From the NCBI GenBank assembly GCA_963847705.1, contig CAWKBC010000030.1:224001-288000 (forward strand): a DNA stretch of 64,000 bases. The letters run 5' to 3'. The position numbers were made by a program, and so were the translations under genes. This document shows positions 43,047-63,069 of this stretch, in pieces; position 1 is the first letter of the stretch; each line of letters opens with the position of its first letter. Origin of the DNA: an uncultured Pseudomonadota bacterium (GTDB taxonomy: Bacteria > Myxococcota_A > Polyangia > Fen-1088). The notes below the pieces were generated by a model. That model had not been told where the DNA came from and did no database searches. It saw only the letters and a list, made by a program, of their open reading frames with translations.

Positions 43047-43523
43047 CTATCGACGCTTTGTTGTCGGCGTGGCCCGCGGGACGCCCCTGAGGAGCGCCGC
43101 GATCTCGGCGATCCCCAGCCGGCTGCCGGCGACGGTGAGCGGGGCCAGCGTCCGGGCGAGGAAGGCCAGCTGCCCGGCGTCTTCGAGGTCCGCGAAGAGG
43201 ATGGCGGGGAGCGCGACGCCGGAGGCGCGAAGCCGTCGCAGGATCAGGATCCCCTGCGTCTCGGCCAGCCGCGTGCGTGTCCCGGCGTCCATCGCCGCGG
43301 GCGCCGGTCCCTGCTCGTCGACCAGCCGGTCAGCCGGCGTGCGGCGAAAATCGAGATCGAGCAGGAGCGCGTCGGCGTCCGCCGCGGCGTCGCGCGCTTC
43401 GCCGAAGTCCTGCGCCGGGAGAAAATCGAACGACTCGCCCAGGAAGCGCCGGAAGCGCTCCAGGTACTCGGCGCCGTCCTCGCAGACGACGAAGCGGAGG
43501 CGGGCCTCGGCCGGCGAGGTCAC
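43047..43523 (-). CDS. Atypical stand-alone receiver-domain protein
   Basis: GTGA overlap with the upstream kinase; FVVCEDG, ALLLDLDF, QGILILRRLR, LPAILFA. It is the C-terminal part of the 799-aa ORF in the track. Confidence 0.7.
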   Translation of the reverse strand: MTSPAEARLRFVVCEDGAEYLERFRRFLGESFDFLPAQDFGEARDAAADADALLLDLDFRRTPADRLVDEQGPAPAAMDAGTRTRLAETQGILILRRLRASGVALPAILFADLEDAGQLAFLARTLAPLTVAGSRLGIAEIAALLRGVPRATPTTKRR

Positions 43524-46474
43524 AGCGGAAACGACGCCCCCACCAGCTTGACCAGCGGCGCCGGCTCGGGACGCACCACCAGATGCCCGCGCCAGGCGCG
43601 CACCAGATCGCGCACGATCGCCAGGCCCCGCCCGCTCTCGCGCGCCTCGATCGACTCCAGCGTCAACGCCGCGGGCGCCGAGTCGCCGACCAGCAGCGTG
43701 ACCCACTGGCGCCCGGTCACGTCGCGCTCGCGATCCGCGCGGATGACCACCCGAGCCTCGGGCCTGCCGTCGACGGCGGCCTGGGCGTTGCGCAGGAGGT
43801 TGCTGAAGACGGCTGCCAGCGCGTCGAGCTCGACGGGAAAGTCGAGATCGAGATCGGCCAGGGAGAGACCGGGGGCGGCCCACCCGTGTCCCCCCTGTCG
43901 CCGCTCGGCCTCGACGGCGCCGACCCAGCGCGAGAGCGCCCCGGCGTCGAGGCGGGTGCGTGGGCCCATCTTCAGCAGGGCGTCGAGCGCGTCGGCGTGC
44001 AGGCCGCGCAGGCGGCGATCGATCGCGGCGAGCTCGTCGCGGCCGTCGCGCGGCGCGCGCGTGGCCAGGAGCTCGGCGCGGGCCAGCTCGCGGGTGAGCG
44101 CGCCGAAGACCGGCTCGCGCGCCAGCGGCCGCAGCGGCGCCCCCGCACCGCGCGCCGCCCGCACCAGGCGCTCGTAGATTCCGGTCACCACCAGCGAGGT
44201 GGGGCGTGGCTCGGTCAGCGCGCGGGCGATCTCCTCGGGGGCCACCCGCGGATCGAGCGCGGCGCCGATCACCCCGGCCCGGTGCTTGAGGACGTCGTGG
44301 CGCAGCTCGGCGACGGCGCCCGCCACCTCGGGGAAGAGAGCGGGCCGCTTGCGCAGCGCCGCCTCGACGGTCCGACCGCCCCAGCGGCGTCGGGCCAGGA
44401 GCGCGAGCGCCGTCAGCGCCAGCGCGAAGGCGGCCAGCTCCATGCGCCGCCGCCGCGCGCGCCGGGTCTCCTCGGCGGCGTGCCACGACTGGGAGAGCTC
44501 CCGCTCGGCAGCCTCGGCCGCCGGAATCCAGCTGTCCGCCGGGACCGGAGCTCTCGCGGCGAGGGCGAGCGCCTTGCCCACCCGCGTCCGGGCCGCGGCG
44601 GCGTCGCCTGTCGCGCTCGCCGGGAGCTCCAGCCGGGCCAGCGCCCACCAGGCTGCGGCGACATCGAGATTGGCCGCCTGCTCGAGCCTCCGGCGATCGA
44701 CCAGACGCAGCTCGCTGTCGGGGAGCCTGGCCGCCAGGCGCGCCAGCCGGACCAGCGCGCCGCGGTCTCCGGCGGCGCCGGCCATCTCGTAGCAGTCGCG
44801 CGCCGCGGCTCGCTGATCGGCGTATTCGTAGACCATCCCGATCGCCACCAGCCGCTCGGTCGGCAGCTCGCGCGTGCAGGTCCCCCCGAGCGCGCGCAGC
44901 GCCGCGTCCGGTCGATCTTCGATCAATCGAATGCGGGCCAGCAGGCGAGGAGCGAGGTGCGCGTCGTCGCTGCGTCCGTCGCGTTCCGAGGGGTCGGTCT
45001 TCTCGCCGAGCCCGGCGCGGAGCGCGCGTGCCTCGGCCAGGTGCTCCGGGTTGGGCTCGCGCGCCACGTAGGCGACCAGATCCGCCAGCGCACCGGCGCG
45101 GTCGCCCGCCACGGCGCGGGTGGCCGCCCGCGCGAACCGCGCCTCCTGCACGTCGAGCGCCACGGCACGATCGATCCAGGGGGCCACCAGCGCGTCGCTG
45201 TCGGCCACCAGCGGGCCGGTTTTGTCGGCCTGGTCCGTCTTGTCGACCTTGCCCAGCTTGCGCACCCCGTCGGCCAGCATCCACAGCCCGGGGCCGTCGT
45301 CGTGGAGCGCATCGATCGTCGCCTGCGGCACGGTGCCGCCGAGCGCGTAGAGCGACACCGCGGCGGCGGCGAAGCCGGGCGAATCGGCCAGGGCCGCTTC
45401 GACCAGGTCGCGCCCCATGCCGATCGGATCGCCGACGTCGATCCACTCCTCGGCCTGCTGATAGAGGGCGCGCGCGTGCTCCGAGGGCGCGGCGCCTCGC
45501 GGCGCAGGCGCGCTGACCACGGCGCGCCGGCGGGCGATCTGGGCGCGCAGCTCGCGCAGATCCGACCAGGCCGGCTCGAGCGTGAGCGCCTGGCGCAGGG
45601 CCTCGTCGGCGCGATCGAGCTCCAGCGCCCCGCCGTGCGCGGCGAGCAGCCGCCCGAGCGCGCGCCAGGCCTCGGCGTTCGACGGCGCCAGGTTGACGGC
45701 GATCTCCAGATCTCGAATCGCGTCGTCGACCCGCTCGGCCGCCTCGAAGCGCTCCGCCTCCGCCGCCAGCCGCCGGGCCGTCGCGGGCGCGGGCGCCGGC
45801 CAGTCCTCGAGCGCGCGGGCCCGCTCGTCGAGGGCGATGGTGTCGAGCAGATCGAGCACCCGCTTGCGCTGCGCGCGCGACAGCGGCGGCGCCTCCGGGG
45901 CCAGCAGCGGTTGCAGCCGGGCCCGCGCCGCGGCCGTCCGCCCGACCGCCCGCTCGAACCCGGCCAGGCCGAGCAGCAGGTTGAAGCGCCCCTTGCGATC
46001 GTCCTTCAGCGCCTCCAGCCCCTTGTCGAGGAAGGCGACCACGGCGTCGCGCCGTTCCCAGCGCGCCGGATCCTCCGCCAGCAGGTCGGCCAGGTTCACG
46101 TAGGCGTAGTAGCGGCGCGGGTCTTTTTCGATCGCGCCGCGCAGGACCGCCTCCGCCTCGGCGCGGCGCCCCGCGCGCCCGAGCGCGAACCCCAGATCGG
46201 TCGCCAGCGCCGCGTTTCCCGGCTCGCGCGCGGCGGCCTTGGCGAAGAGCTCCGCCGCCTCGGCGTAGCTCCCCGCGCGCAGCCGCGCCATCGCCTGCGC
46301 GTGCTCGCCGCGCAGCGCCGCGCGCGCGTTGGCCGGCGCCAGCGACGGTGCGGCGGATTTGGAGGGAACCAGAGGTACGGGGGGCGCTTCCGTCGACGGC
46401 GGCGCGGTGCCGCCATCGAGCGCCCCGAGCGCCAGAACGACGGCCGTCGTCACCGCGCCGAGCGCCGCGATCAC
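43520..46474 (-). CDS. Large extracytoplasmic-TPR membrane protein with atypical histidine-kinase module
   Basis: GTGA overlap; signal-like N-terminus, many TPRs, one TM (MELAAFALALTALALLA), ELRHDVLK H-box, NLLRNA N-box, VGDSAP (degenerate G1), SGRGLAIV (G2). Confidence 0.78.
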   Translation of the reverse strand: MIAALGAVTTAVVLALGALDGGTAPPSTEAPPVPLVPSKSAAPSLAPANARAALRGEHAQAMARLRAGSYAEAAELFAKAAAREPGNAALATDLGFALGRAGRRAEAEAVLRGAIEKDPRRYYAYVNLADLLAEDPARWERRDAVVAFLDKGLEALKDDRKGRFNLLLGLAGFERAVGRTAAARARLQPLLAPEAPPLSRAQRKRVLDLLDTIALDERARALEDWPAPAPATARRLAAEAERFEAAERVDDAIRDLEIAVNLAPSNAEAWRALGRLLAAHGGALELDRADEALRQALTLEPAWSDLRELRAQIARRRAVVSAPAPRGAAPSEHARALYQQAEEWIDVGDPIGMGRDLVEAALADSPGFAAAAVSLYALGGTVPQATIDALHDDGPGLWMLADGVRKLGKVDKTDQADKTGPLVADSDALVAPWIDRAVALDVQEARFARAATRAVAGDRAGALADLVAYVAREPNPEHLAEARALRAGLGEKTDPSERDGRSDDAHLAPRLLARIRLIEDRPDAALRALGGTCTRELPTERLVAIGMVYEYADQRAAARDCYEMAGAAGDRGALVRLARLAARLPDSELRLVDRRRLEQAANLDVAAAWWALARLELPASATGDAAAARTRVGKALALAARAPVPADSWIPAAEAAERELSQSWHAAEETRRARRRRMELAAFALALTALALLARRRWGGRTVEAALRKRPALFPEVAGAVAELRHDVLKHRAGVIGAALDPRVAPEEIARALTEPRPTSLVVTGIYERLVRAARGAGAPLRPLAREPVFGALTRELARAELLATRAPRDGRDELAAIDRRLRGLHADALDALLKMGPRTRLDAGALSRWVGAVEAERRQGGHGWAAPGLSLADLDLDFPVELDALAAVFSNLLRNAQAAVDGRPEARVVIRADRERDVTGRQWVTLLVGDSAPAALTLESIEARESGRGLAIVRDLVRAWRGHLVVRPEPAPLVKLVGASFPL

Positions 46475-48189
46475 CCGCGGGCTCCGCGCAGATCGCGCAG
46501 CCGCAGACCGAGCTGGTTGAGACGCAGGTGGACCTGTCGGGCGGCGCCGCGCGGGCCCAGGAGCTCGCGCGCCATCCGCTCGAGATCGCCGTCGCAGGCG
46601 TCGAACATCGCGCGCAGGTACTGCCGCTCCACGTCGGCCGACAGGCGCGCGAAGCTGGCGGCGGCGCCGATCGCCACCTCGACCCGGCGGACGCCGCCGC
46701 GCTGCGCCGCCGCCGAGGCGCGTGCCCTGGGGGTGGTCACCGCGCCGAGCAGGCGCGCGATCAGCGGGTCGGGGACGTCGAGCACCGCCGGGCCGCGCGC
46801 GGCCGTGGCCGCCGGCCCGGCGTCGAGATGCTGGGTGAGCGCGAAGACCAGCGCGTTGGCGGCGAAGAGCCGCAGCTCGCGGTGATTGCCGGGCCATTCG
46901 TGCGCCACCAGGCGCTCCAGCGCCTCCCGGCTGATGAAGACCGAGAAGGCGTCGCGCCGGGCGGCGGTGGCGCGCGGACGGCCGAACACCACGACGTTCT
47001 CGCCGTCGGCGAAGTCGTCAGGCGTCGGGAACCGGGCCAGGTAGGCGCGGGCCAGCGGCCGCAGCGGCTCCGAGCGCAGCGCCTCGAGAAACGCGAAGCG
47101 GACCAGGTCGGGGAGATCCTCGCGCCGCTCGCGCAGCGCCGGCACCCGCAGCCGCGTGGCCGGGTTGAGCCGCATGTAGAGATCGGCCCGGAAGCGCCCG
47201 GCGTGCACCAGCGCCTCGACGTCCTCGTGCGTGGCGGCCACCAGCTTGGGGGCGGCCGGCCGGGCCCGCGTGTCGCCGAGCCGCGTGACCGTGCCCCGCT
47301 CCAGCACCAGCAGGAGCTGCCGCTGCAGATCGAGCTCCAGGTTGGCGATCTCGTCGAGGAACAGCGTCCCGCCGTGCGCCTGTTCGAACACGCCGGCGTG
47401 ATCCTCGACGGCGCCGGTGTAGGCGCCGCGCCGCGCCCCGAACAGGTGCGCCGCCAGCAGCGCGGGCGGCACCGTCGACAGATCGGTCACCACCAGCGGC
47501 CCCTTGGCGCCCGAGCGTGGGTGGATCACGTGCTCCGCCAGGAAGCTCTTGCCGGTGCCGGTCTCACCCTCGACCAGGAGCGGCAGCGGTGACCGGACCA
47601 GCGTCTCGATCTGGCGCCGCAAGTCGGTCATGGCGGGCGCGCGCCCCCAGAAGATCGGTCCCTCCTGCGCGCTGTGCGACAGGGCCAGCGCGCGCGAGAT
47701 CTCGGCGGCCAGGCTGCGGCTGTCGACCACCTCGTTCTCGCACAGGTAGACCAGGGGATCGGCCGGCCGCTCGGCGCCGAGGTCGGAGCCGGTGGTGGTC
47801 AGCATGACCACCGGCAGCGTCGGATAGGTGGCCCGCAGCTTCTCCAGAATGAGCAGGCCCTGCCGGCGCCGCAGCTGCTCCAGCGCCGCGCGCCGCAGCT
47901 TGGCTTCGACCGGCAGCTCGGACTTGTCCTCGGGGAGCAGCCGCTCCTCCGGCAGCGCGAAGTGCAGATCGAGCACCACCAGATCGGGCAGCGCCGGCTG
48001 CCGCCCCAGCGCCTCGGCCGCCTCGGCGTAGTCGTGCGCGCAGCGCAGCGGGCAGCCGCGCGTCCGCTCCTCGCAGACCTGGCAGGGGATGCGGCGGTCG
48101 CAGCGGGTGACGGTCTCGAACTGCGGCATCTGCCGGTGGACCATCTCCACCGTCTGGTCGCGATCGTCGATCACCAGGAGACGCGGCAT
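46471..48189 (-). CDS. Sigma-54 enhancer-binding protein (NtrC-like) with Cys-rich insertion in the receiver
   Basis: LLVIDD, VVLDLHF, Walker A GETGTGKS, GAYTGA, LFLDEI, RFRADLYMRL, WPGNHRELR, Fis-like C-terminus. Confidence 0.92.
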   Translation of the reverse strand: MPRLLVIDDRDQTVEMVHRQMPQFETVTRCDRRIPCQVCEERTRGCPLRCAHDYAEAAEALGRQPALPDLVVLDLHFALPEERLLPEDKSELPVEAKLRRAALEQLRRRQGLLILEKLRATYPTLPVVMLTTTGSDLGAERPADPLVYLCENEVVDSRSLAAEISRALALSHSAQEGPIFWGRAPAMTDLRRQIETLVRSPLPLLVEGETGTGKSFLAEHVIHPRSGAKGPLVVTDLSTVPPALLAAHLFGARRGAYTGAVEDHAGVFEQAHGGTLFLDEIANLELDLQRQLLLVLERGTVTRLGDTRARPAAPKLVAATHEDVEALVHAGRFRADLYMRLNPATRLRVPALRERREDLPDLVRFAFLEALRSEPLRPLARAYLARFPTPDDFADGENVVVFGRPRATAARRDAFSVFISREALERLVAHEWPGNHRELRLFAANALVFALTQHLDAGPAATAARGPAVLDVPDPLIARLLGAVTTPRARASAAAQRGGVRRVEVAIGAAASFARLSADVERQYLRAMFDACDGDLERMARELLGPRGAARQVHLRLNQLGLRLRDLRGARG

Positions 48190-48191
48190 CG

Positions 48192-48542
48192 TTACTTCCC
48201 TTCTCCCTGTTTCTCTTCCAAGGAGCGCGCCAACGCGTCGAAGGCGGGCTCCAGCGCCAGGACGCCGTCGACGTCGCCCGCCGCGCCCGCCGAGACGGCG
48301 CGGGTCAGCGCCGCTTCGAAGCGCCCGAGCGCGCCGCCGCTGGCCGCGCCGTGCGGCCCGTCGGCGGCGAGCGCGCGCCACAGAGCGTGCGGGGTGGTGG
48401 GGGCGCCTTCATCGTCGACGAGATGGGCGACCAGCTCGCCCGGGGCTGGCACACCGCCCAGGTCGCGCCGATCGCGCGCCGGCCAGACCAGCCGCTTGAC
48501 CAGATCGTGCCGGACGCGGGCCAGCCAGCGGTCGTTCTCCAC
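48192..48542 (-). CDS. Small helical protein with H-box-like motif (putative phosphotransfer protein)
   Basis: RVRHDLVK motif; ends 2 bp before the EBP start; TACAAT 7 nt before the GTG suggests a leaderless mRNA. Confidence 0.68.
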   Translation of the reverse strand: MENDRWLARVRHDLVKRLVWPARDRRDLGGVPAPGELVAHLVDDEGAPTTPHALWRALAADGPHGAASGGALGRFEAALTRAVSAGAAGDVDGVLALEPAFDALARSLEEKQGEGK

Positions 48543-48560
48543 GCTCTCGATTGTATAGAG

Positions 48561-48572
48561 TTAAATATTTAA
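48561..48572. promoter_or_regulatory. Perfect all-AT palindrome (candidate enhancer or bending site)
   Basis: TTAAATATTTAA in a GC-rich context, about 90 bp upstream of the predicted sigma-54 start site. Confidence 0.5.
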
Positions 48573-48630
48573 AAGGTAGAGCCACGGCTCGGGTGGGGCG
48601 CGGGGGGCTCGCTGGCGCGCGGGGCGGCCC

Positions 48631-48646
48631 CGGCACGGCGGCTGCA
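48631..48646 (+). promoter_or_regulatory. Sigma-54 -24/-12 promoter of the SPFH operon
   Basis: CGGCACGgcggCTGCA (consensus TGGCACG-N4-TTGCW), followed by AAGGAG RBS and ATG 48695. Confidence 0.72.
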
Positions 48647-48694: not shown

Positions 48695-49981
48695 ATGGAA
48701 CCGTTCAAGCACCGCTTCAAACAGCTCGTCTTCAAGAGCTACGTCTTCACCCGCGCCGCCGGCGCCGCCGTCGTGCTGGGCTGCATCGAGGTCTTCGGCA
48801 GCCCGCGCGGCCGCCGCTACCTGGGCGGCGCCGCGCTGGTCGGCTGCGCGCTGCTGCTGGTGTTTCGCCCGCCCGTGCAGGTGGTCGCGCCCGGCGAGAT
48901 CGGCGTGCGCCTCAACCGCCTCACCGGCGGCGTCAGCGTGGTCCCTTCCGGGCCGACCTTGATGGTGCCGCTCGTTCACGAGCTGCGGCGCTATGACCTT
49001 CGCGATCAGGTTTACCGCCCGCAAGAGAGCGCCACCGCGGAGGGGGCGGCGCCGTTCCAGTCGCTCGAGGGGCTGTCGGTCGGGGTGGCGGTGACCGTGC
49101 GCTACGCGCTCGATCCGGCCCGCGTCGGTGAGGTGGCCAAGCGCCTGCCGGCCAACGTCGGCGCCGATCTGATCGAGCCGGTCGTCGACGGCGTCCTTCA
49201 CCACGCGCTGTCGCGGCACACGGTGCGCGAGATCTTCAGCGACAAGCGGGTCGAGATTCAGGACGACATCCAGGCGGAGCTGCGCGAGCTGCTCGGCAAG
49301 GATGGGATCACGGTCCGCTCCCTCTACCTCGGCCACATCGATCTGCCGGCGCAGTACCGCGCCGGCCTGGAGGGGATGCTCGCCGAGGAGCTGGCCAGCG
49401 AGAAGATGCGCTACACGCTGCAGCTCAAAGAGAAGAAGGTGAAGGAGTCGGAGCTGGAGGGCGACGCCGCCAAGGTGACGCGCGAGAGGGCTGCCGAGGC
49501 CGCCGCCTCCGAGGAGATCATCGCCGCCAAGGCGCGCGAGGAGGCGATGAAGCACGTGCTGCCGCTCAAGGAGAAGGAGATCGAGCAGCGGCGCCTGGAG
49601 GCCGAGGCGCGCAAGGTGCAGCGGATGAAGGACGCCGAGGGTGAGGCGGAGGCGCGCAAGATCGAGACGGTCGCCGAGGCCGACTCGCGCCGCAAGCTCT
49701 CCGACGCCGACGCTTACCGCATCGAGGTGACCGGCAAGGCCAACAACGCGCAGATGGCGCGCGAGTCGGCGCTCATCGCCAGGAACCCGCTGCTGATTCA
49801 GAAGACGCTGGCCGACAAGCTCTCCGACAAGATCCAGGTCATCGTGGCGCCGCCGTCGGCGGGCGGCTTCTTCGCGGGCGGCCTGCTCGGGATGCAGAGC
49901 CACACCGCCGGCGCGGCCACCTCACCCCCGGTCGCCGCCAACGTCACCCCGGCCAACGACAACGCCGCGGAGGGGGAGTAA
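48695..49981 (+). CDS. SPFH/band-7 (prohibitin/flotillin-like) membrane protein with long coiled coil
   Basis: VVAPGEIGVR, YDLRDQVY, QSLEGLSVGVAVTVRY, DGITVRSLYLGHIDLP, EA-rich coil, KLSDKIQVIV. Confidence 0.9.
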   Translation: MEPFKHRFKQLVFKSYVFTRAAGAAVVLGCIEVFGSPRGRRYLGGAALVGCALLLVFRPPVQVVAPGEIGVRLNRLTGGVSVVPSGPTLMVPLVHELRRYDLRDQVYRPQESATAEGAAPFQSLEGLSVGVAVTVRYALDPARVGEVAKRLPANVGADLIEPVVDGVLHHALSRHTVREIFSDKRVEIQDDIQAELRELLGKDGITVRSLYLGHIDLPAQYRAGLEGMLAEELASEKMRYTLQLKEKKVKESELEGDAAKVTRERAAEAAASEEIIAAKAREEAMKHVLPLKEKEIEQRRLEAEARKVQRMKDAEGEAEARKIETVAEADSRRKLSDADAYRIEVTGKANNAQMARESALIARNPLLIQKTLADKLSDKIQVIVAPPSAGGFFAGGLLGMQSHTAGAATSPPVAANVTPANDNAAEGE

Positions 49982-49983
49982 CC

Positions 49984-51432
49984 ATGACCCCCGCGGTCGT
50001 CTTGCTGGTCGCCCTGGTGGCGGAGGATCCGGCGGTCCTTCGCAACGCTCCCCGCGACAACGCCCCCGCGCAGGCCACCTTGTGGCGCGGGGACTGGCTG
50101 GAGGTGCGCGGCGAGAGCGCCGGGTTCCTCAAGGTCTACGACCACCGGCACGAGCGCCCCGGTTACCTGCGGCCCTCGCAGGTGCGGGAGTACCGGCTGG
50201 ATGAAAGCGCAGCGCCCGAGCTGGCCGCGGTCGTTCGCTTTCTGCGCGAGGCCAACGGCTCCGAGTCGCTGGGGATCGGGTATGCGGCGCTGGCGCTGCG
50301 GGCGGCGCCGGCCGGCACCGACACCAGCGAGCTCCTGGCCGCGATCGGCGGCATGGCCGACCGGCTGGCGCGGCGCGCTTCGGCGCGGCGGGCCGACGCC
50401 AGGGACGCCACGCTGGCGGCGCACGTCGCGGTCGCCGAGAGCTACGGCGTGAAGTTCGAGGTCACCGAACCGGAGGAGGTCGGCGGGCGCGCGCGGATCT
50501 GCTACGACGGCGAGGCCTGGGCGGCGGTGCTGGCGTCGCCCGTGGCGGCGCCGGCCGAGCGGGCCCGCGCGGCGCTGTTTCTCTCGGTGGACCCCTGCCG
50601 CGATCCGGTGCAACCGCCGGCCGAGGCACGGCTCTGGAACGATCGCCGCCTGCGGGCGCTGGAGACGGTCGACCTCGTGGCGGCGGGCGCGCTCCCCGCG
50701 TCGCTCGGGGGTCGGGTCCGGTTGCGCCACGCCGAGGCGCTGGCCTGGCGGGCGTTCGACGAGGCGAGGCAGGCCCACGCCGAGGCAGCATCGCGCGCCG
50801 AGGGGGCGGCGGTGCGGGAGCTGGCGCTCTGCGATCGCGGGGTGCTGGCGCCGGAGGATCTCGATCTCTACGACGAGACCGCGGTCCGCGTGGCTGCCTC
50901 GCGCTGGGCGGCCGAGACGCCACCCAAGGAGAAAGCGAGCCGCGCCCGCAAGACGGTCGTCTCCTTCGCGCCGCGCGCGCCCGGGGAGACCTGCGTCCGA
51001 CTGACCGACGGTGCGGCCGACAAGGCGCAGCTCCTGGGGGAGCGCTGCACGTTCGGCGTCGTCTGGCCGAGCGCGCTCCGCTGGGCCCCCTCGGGCGACC
51101 TCGCCACGCTGGCCGTTCAGCCGCTCCCTGCCTGGACGGAGCTCTGGGTCCTGCGCCGGGCCGCCGACGGCAGCTGGGGCTTCGACACCCTCACCGCCGC
51201 CGCGACCGATCCCGACGTCGGCTACGTCGAGTCAGCCGGGTTCTCACCCGACGGTGGCCGCCTGCTGGTCGTTCGCGAGGCCCGCGCCGCGGGCCACCTC
51301 TCCCGCCGGTTTCAGGTGCTGCTCACCGGGGCGCTCTCGGTCGAGACGTGGGCCAGCAGCGCCGACAAGCTGGTCGCCTTCAAGCGCTGGAGCGCCCCGT
51401 CCTGGCGGGCCGGCACGCTGGCGTTGAGGTAA
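49984..51432 (+). CDS. Hypothetical protein with N-terminal bacterial SH3-like domain, helical middle and beta-rich C-terminus
   Basis: 2-bp gap after SPFH; VLRNAP....ATLWRGDWLEVRGESAGFLKV...GYL is SH3b-like; C-terminal WAPSG and FSPDG strands. Confidence 0.7.
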   Translation: MTPAVVLLVALVAEDPAVLRNAPRDNAPAQATLWRGDWLEVRGESAGFLKVYDHRHERPGYLRPSQVREYRLDESAAPELAAVVRFLREANGSESLGIGYAALALRAAPAGTDTSELLAAIGGMADRLARRASARRADARDATLAAHVAVAESYGVKFEVTEPEEVGGRARICYDGEAWAAVLASPVAAPAERARAALFLSVDPCRDPVQPPAEARLWNDRRLRALETVDLVAAGALPASLGGRVRLRHAEALAWRAFDEARQAHAEAASRAEGAAVRELALCDRGVLAPEDLDLYDETAVRVAASRWAAETPPKEKASRARKTVVSFAPRAPGETCVRLTDGAADKAQLLGERCTFGVVWPSALRWAPSGDLATLAVQPLPAWTELWVLRRAADGSWGFDTLTAAATDPDVGYVESAGFSPDGGRLLVVREARAAGHLSRRFQVLLTGALSVETWASSADKLVAFKRWSAPSWRAGTLALR

Positions 51433-57911: not shown

Positions 57912-59309
57912 TTACCCCGCGCGGCGTTTGAGCGCGTTTCCGGTGAACGTCGCCGCGAGATCCCAGATGGCGCTGGGGAAGCGGTGGGCGTCGGCGAGGA
58001 CGTCGTCGACGGCACGGAAGATCCAGTCCTCGTCGCGCTCGCTGAGGCAGAGCGGCGGCAACAGCTTGATGACGTACATGTCGTGCCCCGCGACCTGGCT
58101 CAAGATGCGGTGGCGGCTGAAGAGCGGCAGCACCACCATCTGGCAGTAGAGACCCTTGGTGGCCTTGTCGACCAGCGCCCAGGCGGCCCGCAGCTTGAGC
58201 GACTTCGGCGGCCCGAGCTCGAGCGCGATCATCATGCCGCGCCCGCGCACCTCGGCGAGCAGCTCGTAGCGGCCGCAGAGCTCCTTCAGGCGGCGGATCA
58301 GGCTTTCACCGCGGCGGGCGGCGTTCTCGATCAGCTTCTCGTCGTCGAGCACCTGCAGCGTGGCCAGGCCGGCGGCCATGGCCAGGTTGTTCTTCCCGAA
58401 CGTCGAGCCGTGCACCACCGCGCGATCCATCCGGTCGAAGGTCCTGTCGAAGATCCACCTCTTGCCGGCGACCGCGCCGACGGGCACGTAGCCGCCCGAG
58501 AGCGCCTTGGCGATCAGCACCAGATCGGGATCGACGCCCTCGCCCTGCGTGGCCAGGAACGTCCCGGTGCGGCCCAGCCCCGTCTGCACCTCGTCGGCCA
58601 CGAACAGGGTCCCGTGCCGGCGACAGAGGCGCGCCGCCTCGGCGAGATAACCGGGCGCCGGCAGGTTGACCCCCTTGCCCTGGATCGGCTCGACGATGAA
58701 CGCGGCCACGTCGCCCCGGCCAAGCGCCGCTTCGAGCGCCGGCAGATCGTTCCAGGGGACGCGCACGGCGTCGGCCAGCAGGGGCCCGAACCCTTCGCGG
58801 AAGATCGCGTCGCCGTTGAGCGACAGCGCGCCCATGGTCAGACCGTGGAAGGCGTGGTCGCAGAAGATCAGCTTGGCGCGTCGGGTCGCCTGGCGTGACA
58901 GCTTGATCGCCGCCTCGACCGCCTCGGTCCCCGAGTTGCAGAAGAAGACGCGCTCCTGGCCCGGCATGCGGGCGATGAGCTTCTCCGCCAGCATGCCGGC
59001 CAGCGGCGAGACGTCCATCTGCACCAGATCGGCCAGATCGCCGGCCAGCACCTCGGCGAGCGCGCGCTTCACCGTCGGATGATTGCGCCCGATGGCGAAC
59101 ACGCCGAAGCCGGAGAGGAGATCCAGATAGCGTTGCCCCTCCTTGTCATAGAGGTAGGCCCCCTCTGCGCGCACGTAGTGGCGATCGAACCCGATCGTCT
59201 TCAGCACCTGCACCATCTTGGGGTTCAGGTACTTCTCGTGGAGCGTGAACTTCTCTCCCGCGCGCGCCTCCAGCGCGTCGAGGATTCCGTCCTTGTCGTG
59301 GTCGCTCAC
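57912..59309 (-). CDS. hpnO: Class III aminotransferase, aminobacteriohopanetriol synthase
   Basis: DLLSGFG, NSGTEAVE, EPIQGKG, DEVQTGLGRTG, AKALSGG, VHGSTF; GTGA-coupled to hpnG in a hopanoid cluster. Confidence 0.85.
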   Translation of the reverse strand: MSDHDKDGILDALEARAGEKFTLHEKYLNPKMVQVLKTIGFDRHYVRAEGAYLYDKEGQRYLDLLSGFGVFAIGRNHPTVKRALAEVLAGDLADLVQMDVSPLAGMLAEKLIARMPGQERVFFCNSGTEAVEAAIKLSRQATRRAKLIFCDHAFHGLTMGALSLNGDAIFREGFGPLLADAVRVPWNDLPALEAALGRGDVAAFIVEPIQGKGVNLPAPGYLAEAARLCRRHGTLFVADEVQTGLGRTGTFLATQGEGVDPDLVLIAKALSGGYVPVGAVAGKRWIFDRTFDRMDRAVVHGSTFGKNNLAMAAGLATLQVLDDEKLIENAARRGESLIRRLKELCGRYELLAEVRGRGMMIALELGPPKSLKLRAAWALVDKATKGLYCQMVVLPLFSRHRILSQVAGHDMYVIKLLPPLCLSERDEDWIFRAVDDVLADAHRFPSAIWDLAATFTGNALKRRAG

Positions 59310-60061
59310 GCGGCCCCTCGCGCGGCCAGGCAGGCGGGCAGCGCCGCTTCGGCCGCGCGCGCCAACACCAGGGCGCACTCGGTGACGCGCTTGCGCAGCG
59401 CCAGCAGGACCGGCAAGGCGCCGGGATCGCCGAGGAGGCCCCGCAGCACCCGGCCGCGGCTGACCGCGCCGCCCGCGTCGAGGCTGCGGTTGAGCAGCGC
59501 CGGGAGCGCCTCGCCGGCGGTGTCACTCACCGCCCGCAGGACGATCCAGGGGATCCCCGCCCCGACGGCCCCGGCGACGTAGCTGGCGGACTCCAGGTCG
59601 ACCACCGCCAGACCCACGCCCGCCTGCCGCGCCAGCCGCCGCTTCTCGTCGACGCTGTCGGCGATCCGCCGCGCGCTCACGATCACCGCCGCGCGACCGC
59701 CGGTGGCCCGCGCCGTCGCCGCCACCGATTCGACGTCCGCCTCGCGCACGCGCCCCTCCTCGTCGGTCACACGGCTGGCGACGATCAGATCCGCGGTGGC
59801 CAGCTCGGGGCTGAGCGCCCCGGAGACGCCGATGACGACCAGCGCCCGCGCGCCCGAGGCCCCCAGCAAGGCGGCGACCCCCTCGCGGGCGTTGCGGGCG
59901 CCGTCGCCGGTGGTGGCCAGCGCCACCTCGTGCCCGCCCAATCGCCCGCGCTCGACGACCACCGAGCGGAGCGACGTGGGCTGCGCGCGCAGCGGCCCCG
60001 AGAGCCGCGCCCGCAGGGGCGCAAGCTCTTCCGGCATCGCCGCCACGATGGCGATCGTCAT
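59306..60061 (-). CDS. hpnG: Hopanoid-associated nucleoside phosphorylase
   Basis: AAMPEEL, IGVSGAL, VDLES, LRAVSD (PNP/MTAN fold); lies between hpnH and hpnO. Confidence 0.8.
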   Translation of the reverse strand: MTIAIVAAMPEELAPLRARLSGPLRAQPTSLRSVVVERGRLGGHEVALATTGDGARNAREGVAALLGASGARALVVIGVSGALSPELATADLIVASRVTDEEGRVREADVESVAATARATGGRAAVIVSARRIADSVDEKRRLARQAGVGLAVVDLESASYVAGAVGAGIPWIVLRAVSDTAGEALPALLNRSLDAGGAVSRGRVLRGLLGDPGALPVLLALRKRVTECALVLARAAEAALPACLAARGAA

Positions 60062-60070
60062 CCCCTGCGT

Positions 60071-61072
60071 CTACCCCAGGAAGTTCCAGGCCGCCATACG
60101 CAGCATGTCCTTCGGGCTCTTGCGCAGGCCTCGCACGGCCGAGGCCTCGAACCCGCTGTGCATCGCGCAGTTCTGACACTTCTCGTCCTGGCGCGACTCC
60201 CAGTAGGCCCAGTCGGTCTTGGTCCAGAACTCGGTCCAGTCCTGCACGTACTCGTCGCCGATGAGATAGCAGGGCTTCTTCCACCCCTTGGGCGTGAAGG
60301 TCACCGTGCTCCAGGGGGAGCAGTCGTACTCGCGCATGCCGGCCGCGAACTCCAGGTACATCGGCGTCGACTGCATCCGGTACTGCTTGGAGAGCTCCAG
60401 CACGCGCCGGAACTTCCGCTGGATCTCCTGCTTGGTCAGGAAGATGTCGGCCTTCACCGATTCGTAGTGGTAGCCGGGCGAGACCAGCAGCCCGTCGACG
60501 CCCAGGCTCTTGACCAGCTTGCAGAGCTCCTCGATCTCCTCGACCGACGTCTCCTTGAAGACGGTGGTGTTGGTGGTGACGTGGTAGCCGCGCCGCTTGG
60601 CCTCCTTGATCATCGCGATCGCCTTGTCGAACACGCCCTCGCGCGCGCAGACCTTGTCGTGGGTCTCCCGCATCCCGTCGAGGTGGACGTTGATGGTGAG
60701 CCGCTTGTGCGGCGCGATCTTGCCGAACACCTTGGTGTCCAGCACCAGCCCGTTGGTGCACAGGTAGATGTGCTTCTTGCGCTCGATGATCCCGGCCAGC
60801 AGCTCGGCCAGCTCCGGATAGAGCGTCGGCTCGCCGCCGCAGATCGACACCGTGGGGGCGCCGCACTCGTCGAGCGCGCGCAGGCAGGTCTCGACCGGGA
60901 GGCGATCCGACAGCTTGCCGGTGTGCCGCTCAGTCGAGCAGCCCACGCAGGCGAGGTTGCAGGTATAAAGCGGCTCCAGCATCAGAACCAGCGGGTAGCG
61001 CGTCTCGCCCGCCGCCGCCTTCCGGAGCTGGTAGCCGACCTGGTCTGTCGTTATATGAATCGGAAACCGCAT
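60071..61072 (-). CDS. hpnH: Radical SAM adenosylhopane synthase
   Basis: YPLVLMLEPLYTCNLACVGC, SICGGEP, YLCTN, VHLDG, SPGY.YE, CSPW, PCYL, CQNCAMHSGFE. Confidence 0.93.
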   Translation of the reverse strand: MRFPIHITTDQVGYQLRKAAAGETRYPLVLMLEPLYTCNLACVGCSTERHTGKLSDRLPVETCLRALDECGAPTVSICGGEPTLYPELAELLAGIIERKKHIYLCTNGLVLDTKVFGKIAPHKRLTINVHLDGMRETHDKVCAREGVFDKAIAMIKEAKRRGYHVTTNTTVFKETSVEEIEELCKLVKSLGVDGLLVSPGYHYESVKADIFLTKQEIQRKFRRVLELSKQYRMQSTPMYLEFAAGMREYDCSPWSTVTFTPKGWKKPCYLIGDEYVQDWTEFWTKTDWAYWESRQDEKCQNCAMHSGFEASAVRGLRKSPKDMLRMAAWNFLG

Positions 61073-61086
61073 GGCTCTCTCCTTAG

Positions 61087-63069
61087 ATGACTGACACTGT
61101 CGTTACAACGGGACCCGGACCAAAAGGACCAATCGGACAAAGTCTGCTGGTGCCCGCGCCGCCGCGCGCGCGCCTCGACGCCGCCGTGGCCGCCGCGCGC
61201 GACTGGCTCTGCGCGCGGCAGACCCCGGAGGGGTTCTGGCAGGGGGAGCTGGAAGGGGACACCACCCTGGAAAGCTACCTCATCTTGCTGGAAGCGTTCT
61301 TCAATCGACGCGAGACCGACAAGGTGCGCGATCTGGCCCGGGTCATCCGCGCCGAGGCGCTGCCGGGCGGCGGCTGGAGCCAGTATCAAGGAGGTCCGCC
61401 CGAGCTGTCGGTGTCGTGCCTCAGCTACTTCGCGCTGAAGGTGGCGGGCGAGTCGCCGGAGGCGCCGCACATGCGCGCCGCGCGCGCCGCCATCCGCGCG
61501 CTGGGTGGCGTCGGGCGCGCCAACACCTACACGCGCCACCACCTGGCGATGTTCGGGCAAGTCTCCTGGGAGAGCGTCCCGGCGATCCCGCCCGAGATGC
61601 TCTTCTTCCCGCGGCAGGCGCCGTTCTCCGTCTATGACCTGTCGGCCTGGTCGCGCACTATCTTCGTTCCACTCTCCATCATCTGGGCCGAAAAGCCGGT
61701 GATCGCGCTCCCCGCGTCCTGCGGCGTCCCGGAGCTCCTCGACGATGCGCGCGAGCTCGGCCGGGTCGATCCTCCGCCGGCCGCCGACTGGAAGACCGTC
61801 TTCCACGGCATCGACAAGCTGCTCAAGGTCGGCGAGCGGGTTCCCGGCGCCGGCCTGTTGCGCCGGCGGGCGGTCAAGGGCGCGGGCGCCTGGATGATCG
61901 AGCGGCTGGCCGAGTCCGACGGCCTCTCCGCCATCCTGCCGGCGATGGCCAACAGCGCGCTGGCGCTCAGCCTGCTCGGCTACAGCGAGAAGCATCCGCT
62001 GCTGGCCGAGGCGCTCGGCCACCTCGACGGGCTCTTGCTTCGGGACGAGGACGGCCTGCGCGTGCAGCCTTGCCTCTCGCCCGTCTGGGACACCGTGCTG
62101 GCGACGCATGCGCTCCTGCAAGGGTCGGTCGCGCCCGACGATCCCGCCGTCGCCCGCGCCGTGACCTGGCTGCTCGGCAAACAGACGCGGCGCCCGGGCG
62201 ACTGGGCCGTGCGCAACCCGGCGCCGCCCGGCGGCTGGTACTTCGAAGGGCGGAACGAGTTCTATCCCGACGTCGACGACACCTGCATGGCGCTCATGGT
62301 GCTGGCGCAGGCGCACGCCGGCGGCACGCCGGAGGCGCGCGCCGAGGCGATGCGGCGGGGCCTGGCCTGGATGATGGGGATGCAGAACGACGACGGCGGC
62401 TGGGCCAGCTTCGACCGCGGCAACGACAAGCACTGGCTGACGGCCGTGCCGTTCGCCGACCACAACGCCATGATCGATCCCAGCACCGCCGACATCACGG
62501 CGCGCGTGCTGGAGAGCCTCAGCCACTTCCCCGGGTACCTGTCCAACCTGGGCGTCGCCCATCCGGCCGTCACCCGCGCGCTCGGGTTCCTGCGTCGCGA
62601 TCAGACCACCGAGGGGTGCTGGTACGGCCGCTGGGGGGTCAACTACCTCTACGGCACCTGGCAGGTGTTGCGCGGCCTCGCCGCGATCGGCGAGGACCTG
62701 GAGGCGCCTTACGTGCGGCGGGCCGTTCGCTGGTTGCTCGGACGGCAGAACGACGACGGTGGCTGGGGCGAGAGCATCGCCAGCTACGACCAGCCGGGGC
62801 AAAAGGGGGTCGGCCCCTCGACGCCCAGCCAGACCGCCTGGGCGCTCATGGGGCTCATCGCGGCCGGCGAGACGGCCAGCGCAGCGGTGAAGCGCGGCGT
62901 CCTCCACCTCCTCGATCGGCAAACCTCGGACGGCACCTGGGAGCAGCTCCACTGGACCGGGACCGGCTTCCCCAAGGTTTTCTACCTGAACTACCATCAT
63001 TACCGGCACTACTTCCCGCTGATGGCGCTCTCGCAGTACCGCGCGGGCGTGACGGCCCCGGCCCCCTAG
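61087..63069 (+). CDS. shc: Squalene-hopene cyclase
   Basis: GFWQGELEGD, QPCLSPVWDT, YPDVDDT (DxDD), QW repeats (QNDDGGW), WYGRWGVNY, TGTGFPKVFYL. True start may be GTG 61150. Confidence 0.95.
   Translation: MTDTVVTTGPGPKGPIGQSLLVPAPPRARLDAAVAAARDWLCARQTPEGFWQGELEGDTTLESYLILLEAFFNRRETDKVRDLARVIRAEALPGGGWSQYQGGPPELSVSCLSYFALKVAGESPEAPHMRAARAAIRALGGVGRANTYTRHHLAMFGQVSWESVPAIPPEMLFFPRQAPFSVYDLSAWSRTIFVPLSIIWAEKPVIALPASCGVPELLDDARELGRVDPPPAADWKTVFHGIDKLLKVGERVPGAGLLRRRAVKGAGAWMIERLAESDGLSAILPAMANSALALSLLGYSEKHPLLAEALGHLDGLLLRDEDGLRVQPCLSPVWDTVLATHALLQGSVAPDDPAVARAVTWLLGKQTRRPGDWAVRNPAPPGGWYFEGRNEFYPDVDDTCMALMVLAQAHAGGTPEARAEAMRRGLAWMMGMQNDDGGWASFDRGNDKHWLTAVPFADHNAMIDPSTADITARVLESLSHFPGYLSNLGVAHPAVTRALGFLRRDQTTEGCWYGRWGVNYLYGTWQVLRGLAAIGEDLEAPYVRRAVRWLLGRQNDDGGWGESIASYDQPGQKGVGPSTPSQTAWALMGLIAAGETASAAVKRGVLHLLDRQTSDGTWEQLHWTGTGFPKVFYLNYHHYRHYFPLMALSQYRAGVTAPAP

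What the first reader, a model, noticed from the sequence alone, without database searches (positions are those of the whole stretch)
48040..48102. Five-cysteine insertion inside the receiver domain of the sigma-54 activator
Seen: CDRRIPCQVCEERTRGCPLRC followed by AH, inserted between the acidic pocket (LLVIDD) and the phospho-Asp strand (VVLDLHF). The receiver has a second insertion after the Asp and no obvious beta-5 Lys. The AAA+ domain has GAYTGA and a roughly 45-aa insert before WPGN. Inference: a Zn or Fe-S site or thiol switch could gate activation by redox or metal, in addition to phosphorylation.
Basis: partly seen in the sequence, partly recalled or inferred. Interest (0 to 1): 0.7.

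Follow-up and report, generated by a model that had tools for sequence, protein, structure and literature searches.

The report
Cysteine metal module inside receiver domain
A gene-switching protein of soil myxobacteria carries a strictly conserved four-cysteine loop inside its phosphorylation domain that likely binds zinc and is probably an accessory structural part rather than the main sensor, because many relatives lack it yet keep the rest of the signalling system.

Summary
Residues C30-x5-C36-x2-C39-x6-C46-x3-C50-A-H52 form a 21-22 aa insert in the beta2-alpha2 loop of the receiver of a sigma-54 activator. Only four cysteines are universal: they persist in homologues down to about 35-45% identity. 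Position 50 is Cys or His and position 52 is His in three clades; both are mostly Arg in a fourth. Cys/His interchange and a weak match to the Cep3 Zn2Cys6 cluster favour zinc; [4Fe-4S] is not excluded. No metal or redox data exist.

The insert is accessory. In a phylum sample, 65 of 78 genomes with this activator show no insert, and the insert-less loci read mostly keep the same cassette (small His protein, activator, TPR kinase, lone receiver). D8, D9, D74 and T131 are invariant, and the whole subfamily lacks the beta5 Lys. The likely targets are envelope genes (DUF2914, SPFH, SH3 protein) behind a conserved enhancer and sigma-54 site, not redox genes.

The scan found this cassette before on other DNA (e1-1239949, e1-4517616). 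Verdict: a real, undescribed variant of NtrC-type regulators; gating by redox or metal is plausible but unsupported.

The parts
48040..48102 (-). Cys insert C30-x5-C36-x2-C39-x6-C46-x3-C50 in the beta2-alpha2 loop; core ligands C30 (48100-48102), C36 (48082-48084), C39 (48073-48075), C46 (48052-48054); C50 (48040-48042) is His in other clades
48034..48036 (-). H52, co-conserved with the insert in clades A-C; mostly Arg in insert-less orthologues and Arg in clade D; candidate sixth ligand
48136..48138 (-). H18 in alpha1, co-varies with the insert (13 of 15 clade A, 18 of 19 clades B/C); candidate ligand or packing residue
46471..48189 (-). sigma-54 activator, 572 aa: receiver (1-175), AAA+ (182-343, lid 417-456), C-terminal putative HTH
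48163..48168 (-). acidic pocket D8-D9, invariant
   Evidence: 62 of 62
47968..47970 (-). phospho-acceptor D74, invariant
   Evidence: 62 of 62
47866..47964 (-). second insertion (about residues 76-108, helix 96-108) after the phospho-Asp; shared by the whole subfamily and by the lone receiver
47797..47799 (-). switch residue T131, invariant
   Evidence: 62 of 62
47737..47751 (-). beta5 (147-151), ending in Glu where receivers have Lys
47410..47427 (-). GAYTGA sigma-54 contact loop (255-260)
46897..47115 (-). segment before WPGN holding an insert of about 38 aa
48192..48542 (-). small His protein (116 aa, H-box-like motif at H12); no Pfam family; fused to the activator in clade D
43520..46474 (-). 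membrane TPR sensor kinase-like protein (984 aa; His726, N-box 892, G2 box 948), start overlapping the activator stop
43047..43523 (-). lone atypical receiver (158 aa), closest paralogue of the activator's receiver in this genome; no Cys insert
48550..48581 (+). conserved AT-rich bipartite site, likely the activator's enhancer; overlaps the probable promoter of the cassette
48630..48646 (+). sigma-54 -24/-12 site facing the SPFH gene
48695..49981 (+). SPFH/Band 7 protein, likely target
49984..51432 (+). protein with a weak N-terminal SH3 match, likely co-transcribed target

Best explanation
The insert is a conserved four-cysteine loop in the receiver's beta2-alpha2 turn that likely binds zinc and would act as an accessory structural or docking mini-domain, while the activator is likely still switched on by phosphorylation of Asp74 and would then drive sigma-54 promoters of envelope genes. 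Shown: position, conservation, clade variation, loss in relatives, intact D8/D9/D74/T131, the cassette, and the enhancer plus sigma-54 site before SPFH and DUF2914. Inferred: C30, C36, C39 and C46 bind one Zn(II). In this clade and clades B/C the extra ligands C/H50 and H52 (perhaps H18) would make it a two-zinc site; clade D has the four-Cys core alone. The folded loop would sit at the sheet edge next to alpha1 and shape how the small His protein or the kinase docks, or how the receiver holds the AAA+ domain off. The signal itself would enter through the periplasmic TPR kinase.
For: Core Cys kept in 59 of 59 close loci, 118 of 118 parsed close proteins, 109 of 110 parsed clade B proteins and 9 of 9 clade D loci. 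Position 50 is C in clade A (117 of 118) and H in clade B (109 of 109), with H52 kept; Cys/His swapping is typical of zinc ligands (own knowledge), and six candidate ligands exceed what one Zn or one [4Fe-4S] needs. The best PDB sequence match of the insert profile is the Zn2Cys6 cluster of yeast Cep3, in register over four Cys (E 0.0067); it is again top with a re-weighted profile, followed by a zinc metallothionein domain (E 0.33 and 0.74). AF2 folds the insert confidently (pLDDT 85-87) as CxxC plus a short helix on an intact receiver (Z 13.8 to NtrX). Accessory: only 13 of 78 activator-bearing genomes have a strong insert hit, and insert-less loci mostly keep the small His protein, kinase and lone receiver. 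D8, D9, D74 and T131 are 62 of 62. Targets are DUF2914, SPFH and SH3 genes.
Against: The Cep3 match is weak (best domain E 0.43; full-length Cep3 E about 4) and Cys-rich strings inflate such scores. In clades B-D the core reads C-x5-C-x2-C-(P)-x4-C, one residue off the endonuclease III [4Fe-4S] loop (HHalign 28-39%). An element that is dispensable yet invariant where present fits a regulatory input as well as a structural one. The beta5 Lys is absent, so phosphorylation-driven activation is not assured. The SPFH/DUF2914 link was seen only for clade A (none in 20 wider loci apart from one clade A locus that also lacked it).
Confidence: 0.45

Rival explanations
1. The insert is a zinc-thiolate switch: oxidation or zinc loss unfolds the loop and changes docking or autoinhibition, giving a second input beside phosphorylation.
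For: Same ligand evidence as the best explanation. Precedent in the same phylum: PexR is autoinhibited by a Zn/Fe GAF site that releases metal with H2O2, and that paper cites Hsp33 and RsrA as Zn-Cys redox centres (PMC12754779, passages). The module is dispensable yet invariant where kept. The relocated DUF2914 target lies downstream of a LysR/ahpC/ahpD/MATE block in this genome.
Against: No redox gene follows either predicted promoter. The ahpCD block lies upstream of the enhancer; the adjacent MATE gene is seen in only 6 of 17 same-genus loci, which fits one relocation. No experimental data.
Confidence: 0.22
2. The four core Cys hold a [4Fe-4S] cluster that senses O2, NO or redox potential, as in OrpR, but inside a receiver domain.
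For: All four Cys lie within 16-17 residues. Pro follows the third Cys in 58 of 128 clade B/C and 7 of 10 clade D inserts, as in 24 of 27 endonuclease III loops. Clade D has only the four Cys. Weak hits: LRV_FeS in 1 of 29 members (E 0.033) and an NsrR segment (E 1.4). OrpR shows an Fe-S sigma-54 activator exists (PMC8359166, passages).
Against: The endonuclease III likeness does not clearly exceed Cys-fixed shuffles (29/60, 7/60, 2/60, 7/60). The Rrf2 likeness failed (8/50 to 26/50). It leaves C/H50 and H52 unexplained. The window's clade has Glu, not Pro, after the third Cys in 103 of 111.
Confidence: 0.2
3. The receiver is a pseudo-receiver that is not activated by phosphorylation, and the Cys module or partner binding is the main control.
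For: No beta5 Lys in 62 of 62; the active-site Lys is described as highly conserved (PMC5242315, passage). The kinase has a shortened ATP-binding region with only a weak HATPase_c match (E 0.0011, below cut-off).
Against: D8, D9, D74 and T131 are invariant, the kinase keeps its H-box, and Lys loss is shared by insert-less members, so the insert does not replace it.
Confidence: 0.08
4. The cysteines bind no metal and form disulfides or are merely structural.
For: No metal has been measured; no Pfam or NCBIfam family matches the insert.
Against: The protein is cytoplasmic, and Cys/His interchange at position 50 is not expected for a disulfide.
Confidence: 0.05

Closest known systems
NtrC-type receiver-AAA+-HTH sigma-54 activators (NtrC, NtrX, NtrC1)
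   Same: Receiver fold (Z 13.8, rmsd 2.2, 123 aligned to NtrX 5m7n), Sigma54_activat E 1.6e-50, acidic pocket, phospho-Asp, Thr, GAYTGA, cognate kinase and sigma-54 promoter
   Different: Cys4 insert, 29-aa post-Asp insert, no beta5 Lys, 38-aa AAA+ insert, extra small His protein and lone receiver; far below every NCBIfam cut-off
OrpR of Desulfovibrio vulgaris (PMC8359166)
   Same: sigma-54 activator with conserved Cys in its N-terminal regulatory domain
   Different: OrpR has three Cys (C52, C61, C65) and a [4Fe-4S] cluster in a PAS domain; here there are four to five Cys inside a receiver that keeps its phospho-Asp
PexR of Myxococcus xanthus (PMC12754779)
   Same: Myxococcota sigma-54 activator with a Cys/His metal site, divergent from its target, with binding sites over a second promoter
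   Different: PexR uses a GAF domain with one Cys and controls ahpC and katB; this protein has a receiver and likely controls envelope genes
Fungal Zn2Cys6 cluster (Cep3, PDB 7k7g)
   Same: The last four Cys of Cep3's cluster align in register with C30, C36, C39 and C46
   Different: The first two Cys are absent; the match is weak and probably convergent; no sign of DNA binding by the insert
Endonuclease III/MutY [4Fe-4S] loop (PF10576)
   Same: Four Cys in about 17 residues; Pro often follows the third Cys in clades B-D
   Different: First spacing is 5, not 6; similarity not clearly above Cys-fixed shuffles; no Pfam hit

Membership tests
NtrC-type sigma-54 activator | AAA+ domain with Walker A, Walker B and a GAFTGA-like loop | tested here: met
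   PF00158 E 1.6e-50; motifs at 208, 276 and 255
NtrC-type sigma-54 activator | N-terminal receiver fold | tested here: met
   AF2 pLDDT 90; top Foldseek and VIA-align rows are almost all receivers
NtrC-type sigma-54 activator | Acidic pocket, phospho-Asp and Thr/Ser switch | tested here: met
   D8, D9, D74, T131 in 62 of 62
NtrC-type sigma-54 activator | Conserved active-site Lys after beta5 | tested here: not met
   0 of 62 have Lys in residues 144-159; so an atypical receiver, not a canonical one
NtrC-type sigma-54 activator | C-terminal Fis-type HTH | tested here: inconclusive
   No HTH_8 hit at E 0.1; the conserved helical C-terminus looks HTH-like by eye
NtrC-type sigma-54 activator | Enhancer and -24/-12 promoter at target genes | tested here: met
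   34 of 37 divergent loci; second site in own genome; 17 of 17 DUF2914 loci. Sequence evidence only
NtrC-type sigma-54 activator | Activation by phosphorylation | not testable with these tools
   needs phosphotransfer and reporter assays
Zn2Cys6 binuclear cluster | Six Cys in two CxxC-led halves (pattern recalled; Cep3 segments seen) | tested here: not met
   Only one CxxC; four universal Cys; no Zn_clus Pfam hit in 29 or 16 members
Zn2Cys6 binuclear cluster | Two bound Zn ions | not testable with these tools
   complex prediction with ligands was not available; needs ICP-MS
Endonuclease III FCL [4Fe-4S] loop | C-x6-C-x2-C-x5-C spacing | tested here: not met
   Insert has x5-x2-x5/6 (x4 to x10 in outliers); natural loops
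Endonuclease III FCL [4Fe-4S] loop | Profile similarity beyond the Cys positions | tested here: inconclusive
   Shuffles reach the score in 29, 7, 2 and 7 of 60
Rrf2 (IscR/NsrR) Fe-S motif | Three-Cys motif after a winged helix | tested here: not met
   No Rrf2 domain; HHalign probability under 4%, shuffles 8-26 of 50
OrpR-type Fe-S activator | PAS domain with three conserved Cys | tested here: not met
   N-terminal domain is a receiver; no PAS hit
PexR/NorR-type metal-sensing activator | N-terminal metal-binding GAF domain | tested here: not met
   No GAF hit; receiver fold

The most novel reading that the evidence does not exclude
A receiver domain with its own built-in redox or metal sensor: an Fe-S cluster or labile zinc-thiolate site in the beta2-alpha2 loop gates phosphotransfer from a dedicated small His protein, so one domain integrates an envelope signal with the cytoplasmic redox state. 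The module would be ancestral to the subfamily and lost in later lineages.
Probability: 0.3. Interest if true: 0.78.

Novelty: new variant of a known kind. Interest (0 to 1): 0.5.

Why it matters
Metal and Fe-S sensing in the sigma-54 activators read about here sits in separate PAS or GAF domains (OrpR, PexR). A Cys4 site inside a phosphorylatable receiver was not found in the paper searches run (open-access library only). If the site is labile, it is a compact dual-input switch. If it is structural, it is still an unnamed metal mini-domain, with natural with/without pairs and a predicted promoter that make the test easy. A cultured carrier exists: Sandaracinus amylolyticus, WP_053235173.1.

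Tried and rejected
1. Rrf2/IscR likeness (a recalled lead, plus a weak NsrR hit): rejected, HHalign under 4% and within shuffles; 13 of 29 Rrf2 loci had three Cys and were used.
2. Endonuclease III loop likeness: not clearly above Cys-fixed shuffles.
3. Pfam and NCBIfam scans of the insert: no family. ESM Atlas: no usable hit for the insert, only generic receivers for the domain.
4. Folding the insert alone without an alignment: pLDDT 62, no Foldseek match; uninformative.
5. Complex prediction of receiver plus small His protein with Zn and Mg: tool not available, nothing folded.
6. Insert in other protein contexts: among 401 genomes the 20 strong hits are all in this activator. Of 12 weak hits (E above 6e-4), 10 were inspected and 3 showed a Cys pattern, in frames that do not look like genes.
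7. Gain against loss: both trees need three changes and group clade A with insert-less proteins (SH-aLRT 99), but the AU test does not reject one Cys4 clade (p 0.215). The careful tree did not finish.
8. Expression: three RNA runs hold only 5-7% of the words, as contigs of relatives; no evidence drawn.
9. A sigma-54 pattern scan of the window alone is not significant (45 matches against 50 expected); the site rests on conservation.
10. A redox link through ahpCD: discounted as a likely relocation in one lineage.
11. Small His protein against the kinase's His region: HHalign 33.6%, suggestive only; its His was used to pick the sequences.

Full report
OBSERVATION. The gene is window 48189..46471 on the minus strand, 572 aa, with a sigma-54 interaction domain (E 1.6e-50) and only a faint receiver match. 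An AF2 model of residues 1-175 on a 149-row alignment has pLDDT 90 and pTM 0.87, with beta2 at 25-27, short helices at 36-38 and 40-44, and alpha2 at 54-63. It matches receivers best (NtrX, Z 13.8, 123 of 175 residues aligned). The insert is 21-22 aa against insert-less orthologues. The post-Asp insertion is about 29 aa, the beta5 Lys is absent, and the AAA+ insert is about 38 aa.

CONSERVATION. Of the 120 closest proteins listed (480 found), 118 were parsed. All 118 have C-x5-C-x2-C-x6-C, then C (117) or G (1), then A-H; the two unparsed are N-truncated and show the motif by eye. In 59 genome loci (61 orthologous loci less two truncated) the four core Cys and H52 are 59 of 59 and C50 is 58 of 59, with synonymous codon variation. 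A search from a 43% identical relative gave clade B, which includes Sandaracinus amylolyticus. Of 120 listed, 110 were parsed and 109 have C-x5-C-x2-C-x5-C-x3-H-A-H; one has Ser for the first Cys, and the ten unparsed show the motif by eye. Clade C is alike. Clade D (9 loci) keeps the four Cys but has Arg at 50 (8 of 9) and 52 (9 of 9), and all nine have the small His protein fused in front. Outliers have spacings x4-x2-x4 or a third spacing of 10. So the universal unit is Cys4, and the fifth Cys is clade-specific and swaps with His. T28 (36 of 36) and H18 (13 of 15, 18 of 19, 1 of 2) go with the insert.

DISTRIBUTION AND HISTORY. The receiver matched one locus in each of 78 of 401 genomes of the phylum. 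The insert profile gave 20 strong hits in the same 401 genomes, all in this activator; 13 are among the 78 and 7 are divergent clade D copies below the first threshold. So 65 of 78 show no insert; 21 such genome loci were read directly. Trees built without the insert columns need three changes and place clade A with the insert-less proteins (SH-aLRT 99). Some insert-less proteins keep short remnants at the same spot, including a Cys or His at position 50. This suggests an ancestral module that was lost, but the AU test does not reject a single Cys4 clade (p 0.215). Either way one origin suffices. Rows dropped: 30 near-redundant sequences before and 24 more.

CONTEXT. The activator lies in a coupled cassette: small His protein, activator, TPR kinase, lone receiver. 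Among 63 loci (61 orthologues, many cut short) the partners were found in 56, 52 and 42, one of the 42 being a self-hit. Insert-less loci mostly keep the same parts. The lone receiver is the nearest paralogue in this genome, shares the post-Asp insert, keeps its Asp (57 of 57) and never has the Cys motif (0 of 57). D8, D9, D74 and T131 of the activator are 62 of 62, and Lys is absent in 62 of 62, with or without the insert.

TARGETS. A -24/-12 site at 48630-48646 faces the SPFH gene. It is not significant alone but is kept in 34 of 37 divergent loci and 36 of 50 loci overall. A bipartite AT-rich site lies 50 nt upstream. A matrix from 33 relatives' loci finds only two sites above 30 bits in this genome, each followed by a sigma-54 motif: this one and one on contig C32. 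The C32 site precedes a DUF2914 gene, the gene that is first behind the divergent promoter in many relatives. All 17 DUF2914 loci in the genus have the pair, one weakly. Six lie beside a MATE gene, away from the cassette and outside the training set; the other 11 overlap the training set. The likely regulon is therefore DUF2914, SPFH and the SH3 protein, an envelope set. This link was seen only in clade A; none of 20 wider loci showed it.

WHICH METAL. No family matches the insert. Against PDB sequences the best hit is the Zn2Cys6 cluster of Cep3, four Cys in register, E 0.0067 for a 48-aa chain but 0.43 for the best domain. A profile weighted to clades B-D gives Cep3 0.33, a plant zinc metallothionein domain 0.74 and NsrR 1.4. 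The endonuclease III loop aligns at 28-39% probability for clades B-D and pooled, and at 2% for clade A, but Cys-fixed shuffles reach those scores in 2 to 29 of 60 trials. The Rrf2 idea failed. I favour zinc (about 60%, Fe-S about 25%, other 15%), by inference from the Cys/His swap and the surplus of ligands.

MECHANISM. Most likely the TPR kinase senses an envelope cue and passes phosphate, perhaps through the small His protein, to D74, and the AAA+ domain then opens the sigma-54 promoters (inferred from conserved residues, gene order and the clade D fusion). The Cys4 loop would be a zinc-held mini-domain at the sheet edge near alpha1 that tunes docking or autoinhibition (inferred). A labile zinc switch or an Fe-S sensor remain real rivals, with precedents in PexR (PMC12754779) and OrpR (PMC8359166), where the site sits in a GAF or PAS domain. 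Of these two papers and PMC5242315 I saw keyword passages only; supplements were not read. All other papers were seen as search listings.

NOVELTY. Searches of the open library found no description of such a receiver insert or of this cassette; subscription papers are not covered. Two earlier scan reports describe the same cassette in other genomes (one of them again); I had reached the cassette and promoter reading before seeing them. Class: new variant of a known kind. Interest 0.5, and about 0.78 if the site proves to be a sensor.

Noticed in passing
G000:C32:166118-166622 (L209:6119-6623): Second copy of the enhancer plus sigma-54 site in front of a DUF2914 gene, moved away from the cassette and now downstream of LysR, ahpC, ahpD and MATE genes; the MATE neighbour is seen in 6 of 17 same-genus loci
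   Followed up: yes
window 48192-48542 (-); L130-L138; P0218: Small His protein with an H-box like the kinase's, fused to the activator in clade D; candidate dedicated phosphotransfer protein of no known family
   Followed up: partly
window 48550-48560, read on the minus strand: The left half of the enhancer reads as a -10-like hexamer about 7 nt before the small His protein's start, suggesting a leaderless mRNA and autorepression; this half persists in loci that lack the sigma-54 site
   Followed up: partly
window 43047-43523 (-): The lone receiver keeps the phospho-Asp but has Asp (53 of 57) near the end of beta4 where Thr/Ser is usual
   Followed up: partly
L101-L103 and L099, L100, L105-L107: The cassette's kinase changes architecture by clade: kinase domain N-terminal with a long C-terminal extension in clade C, a short TPR region in clade B, and different gene orders
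   Followed up: no
window 43520-43800 (-): The kinase's ATP-binding region seems to lack the usual glycine-rich G1 and F boxes while keeping N and G2 boxes (read by eye)
   Followed up: no
L044, L053, L057, L058: A variant -12 element (TGAA) at the divergent promoter in four loci
   Followed up: no
window 57912-61090 (-): Aminotransferase, nucleosidase-like and neighbouring genes that look like a hopanoid biosynthesis cluster (recalled resemblance, not tested)
   Followed up: no
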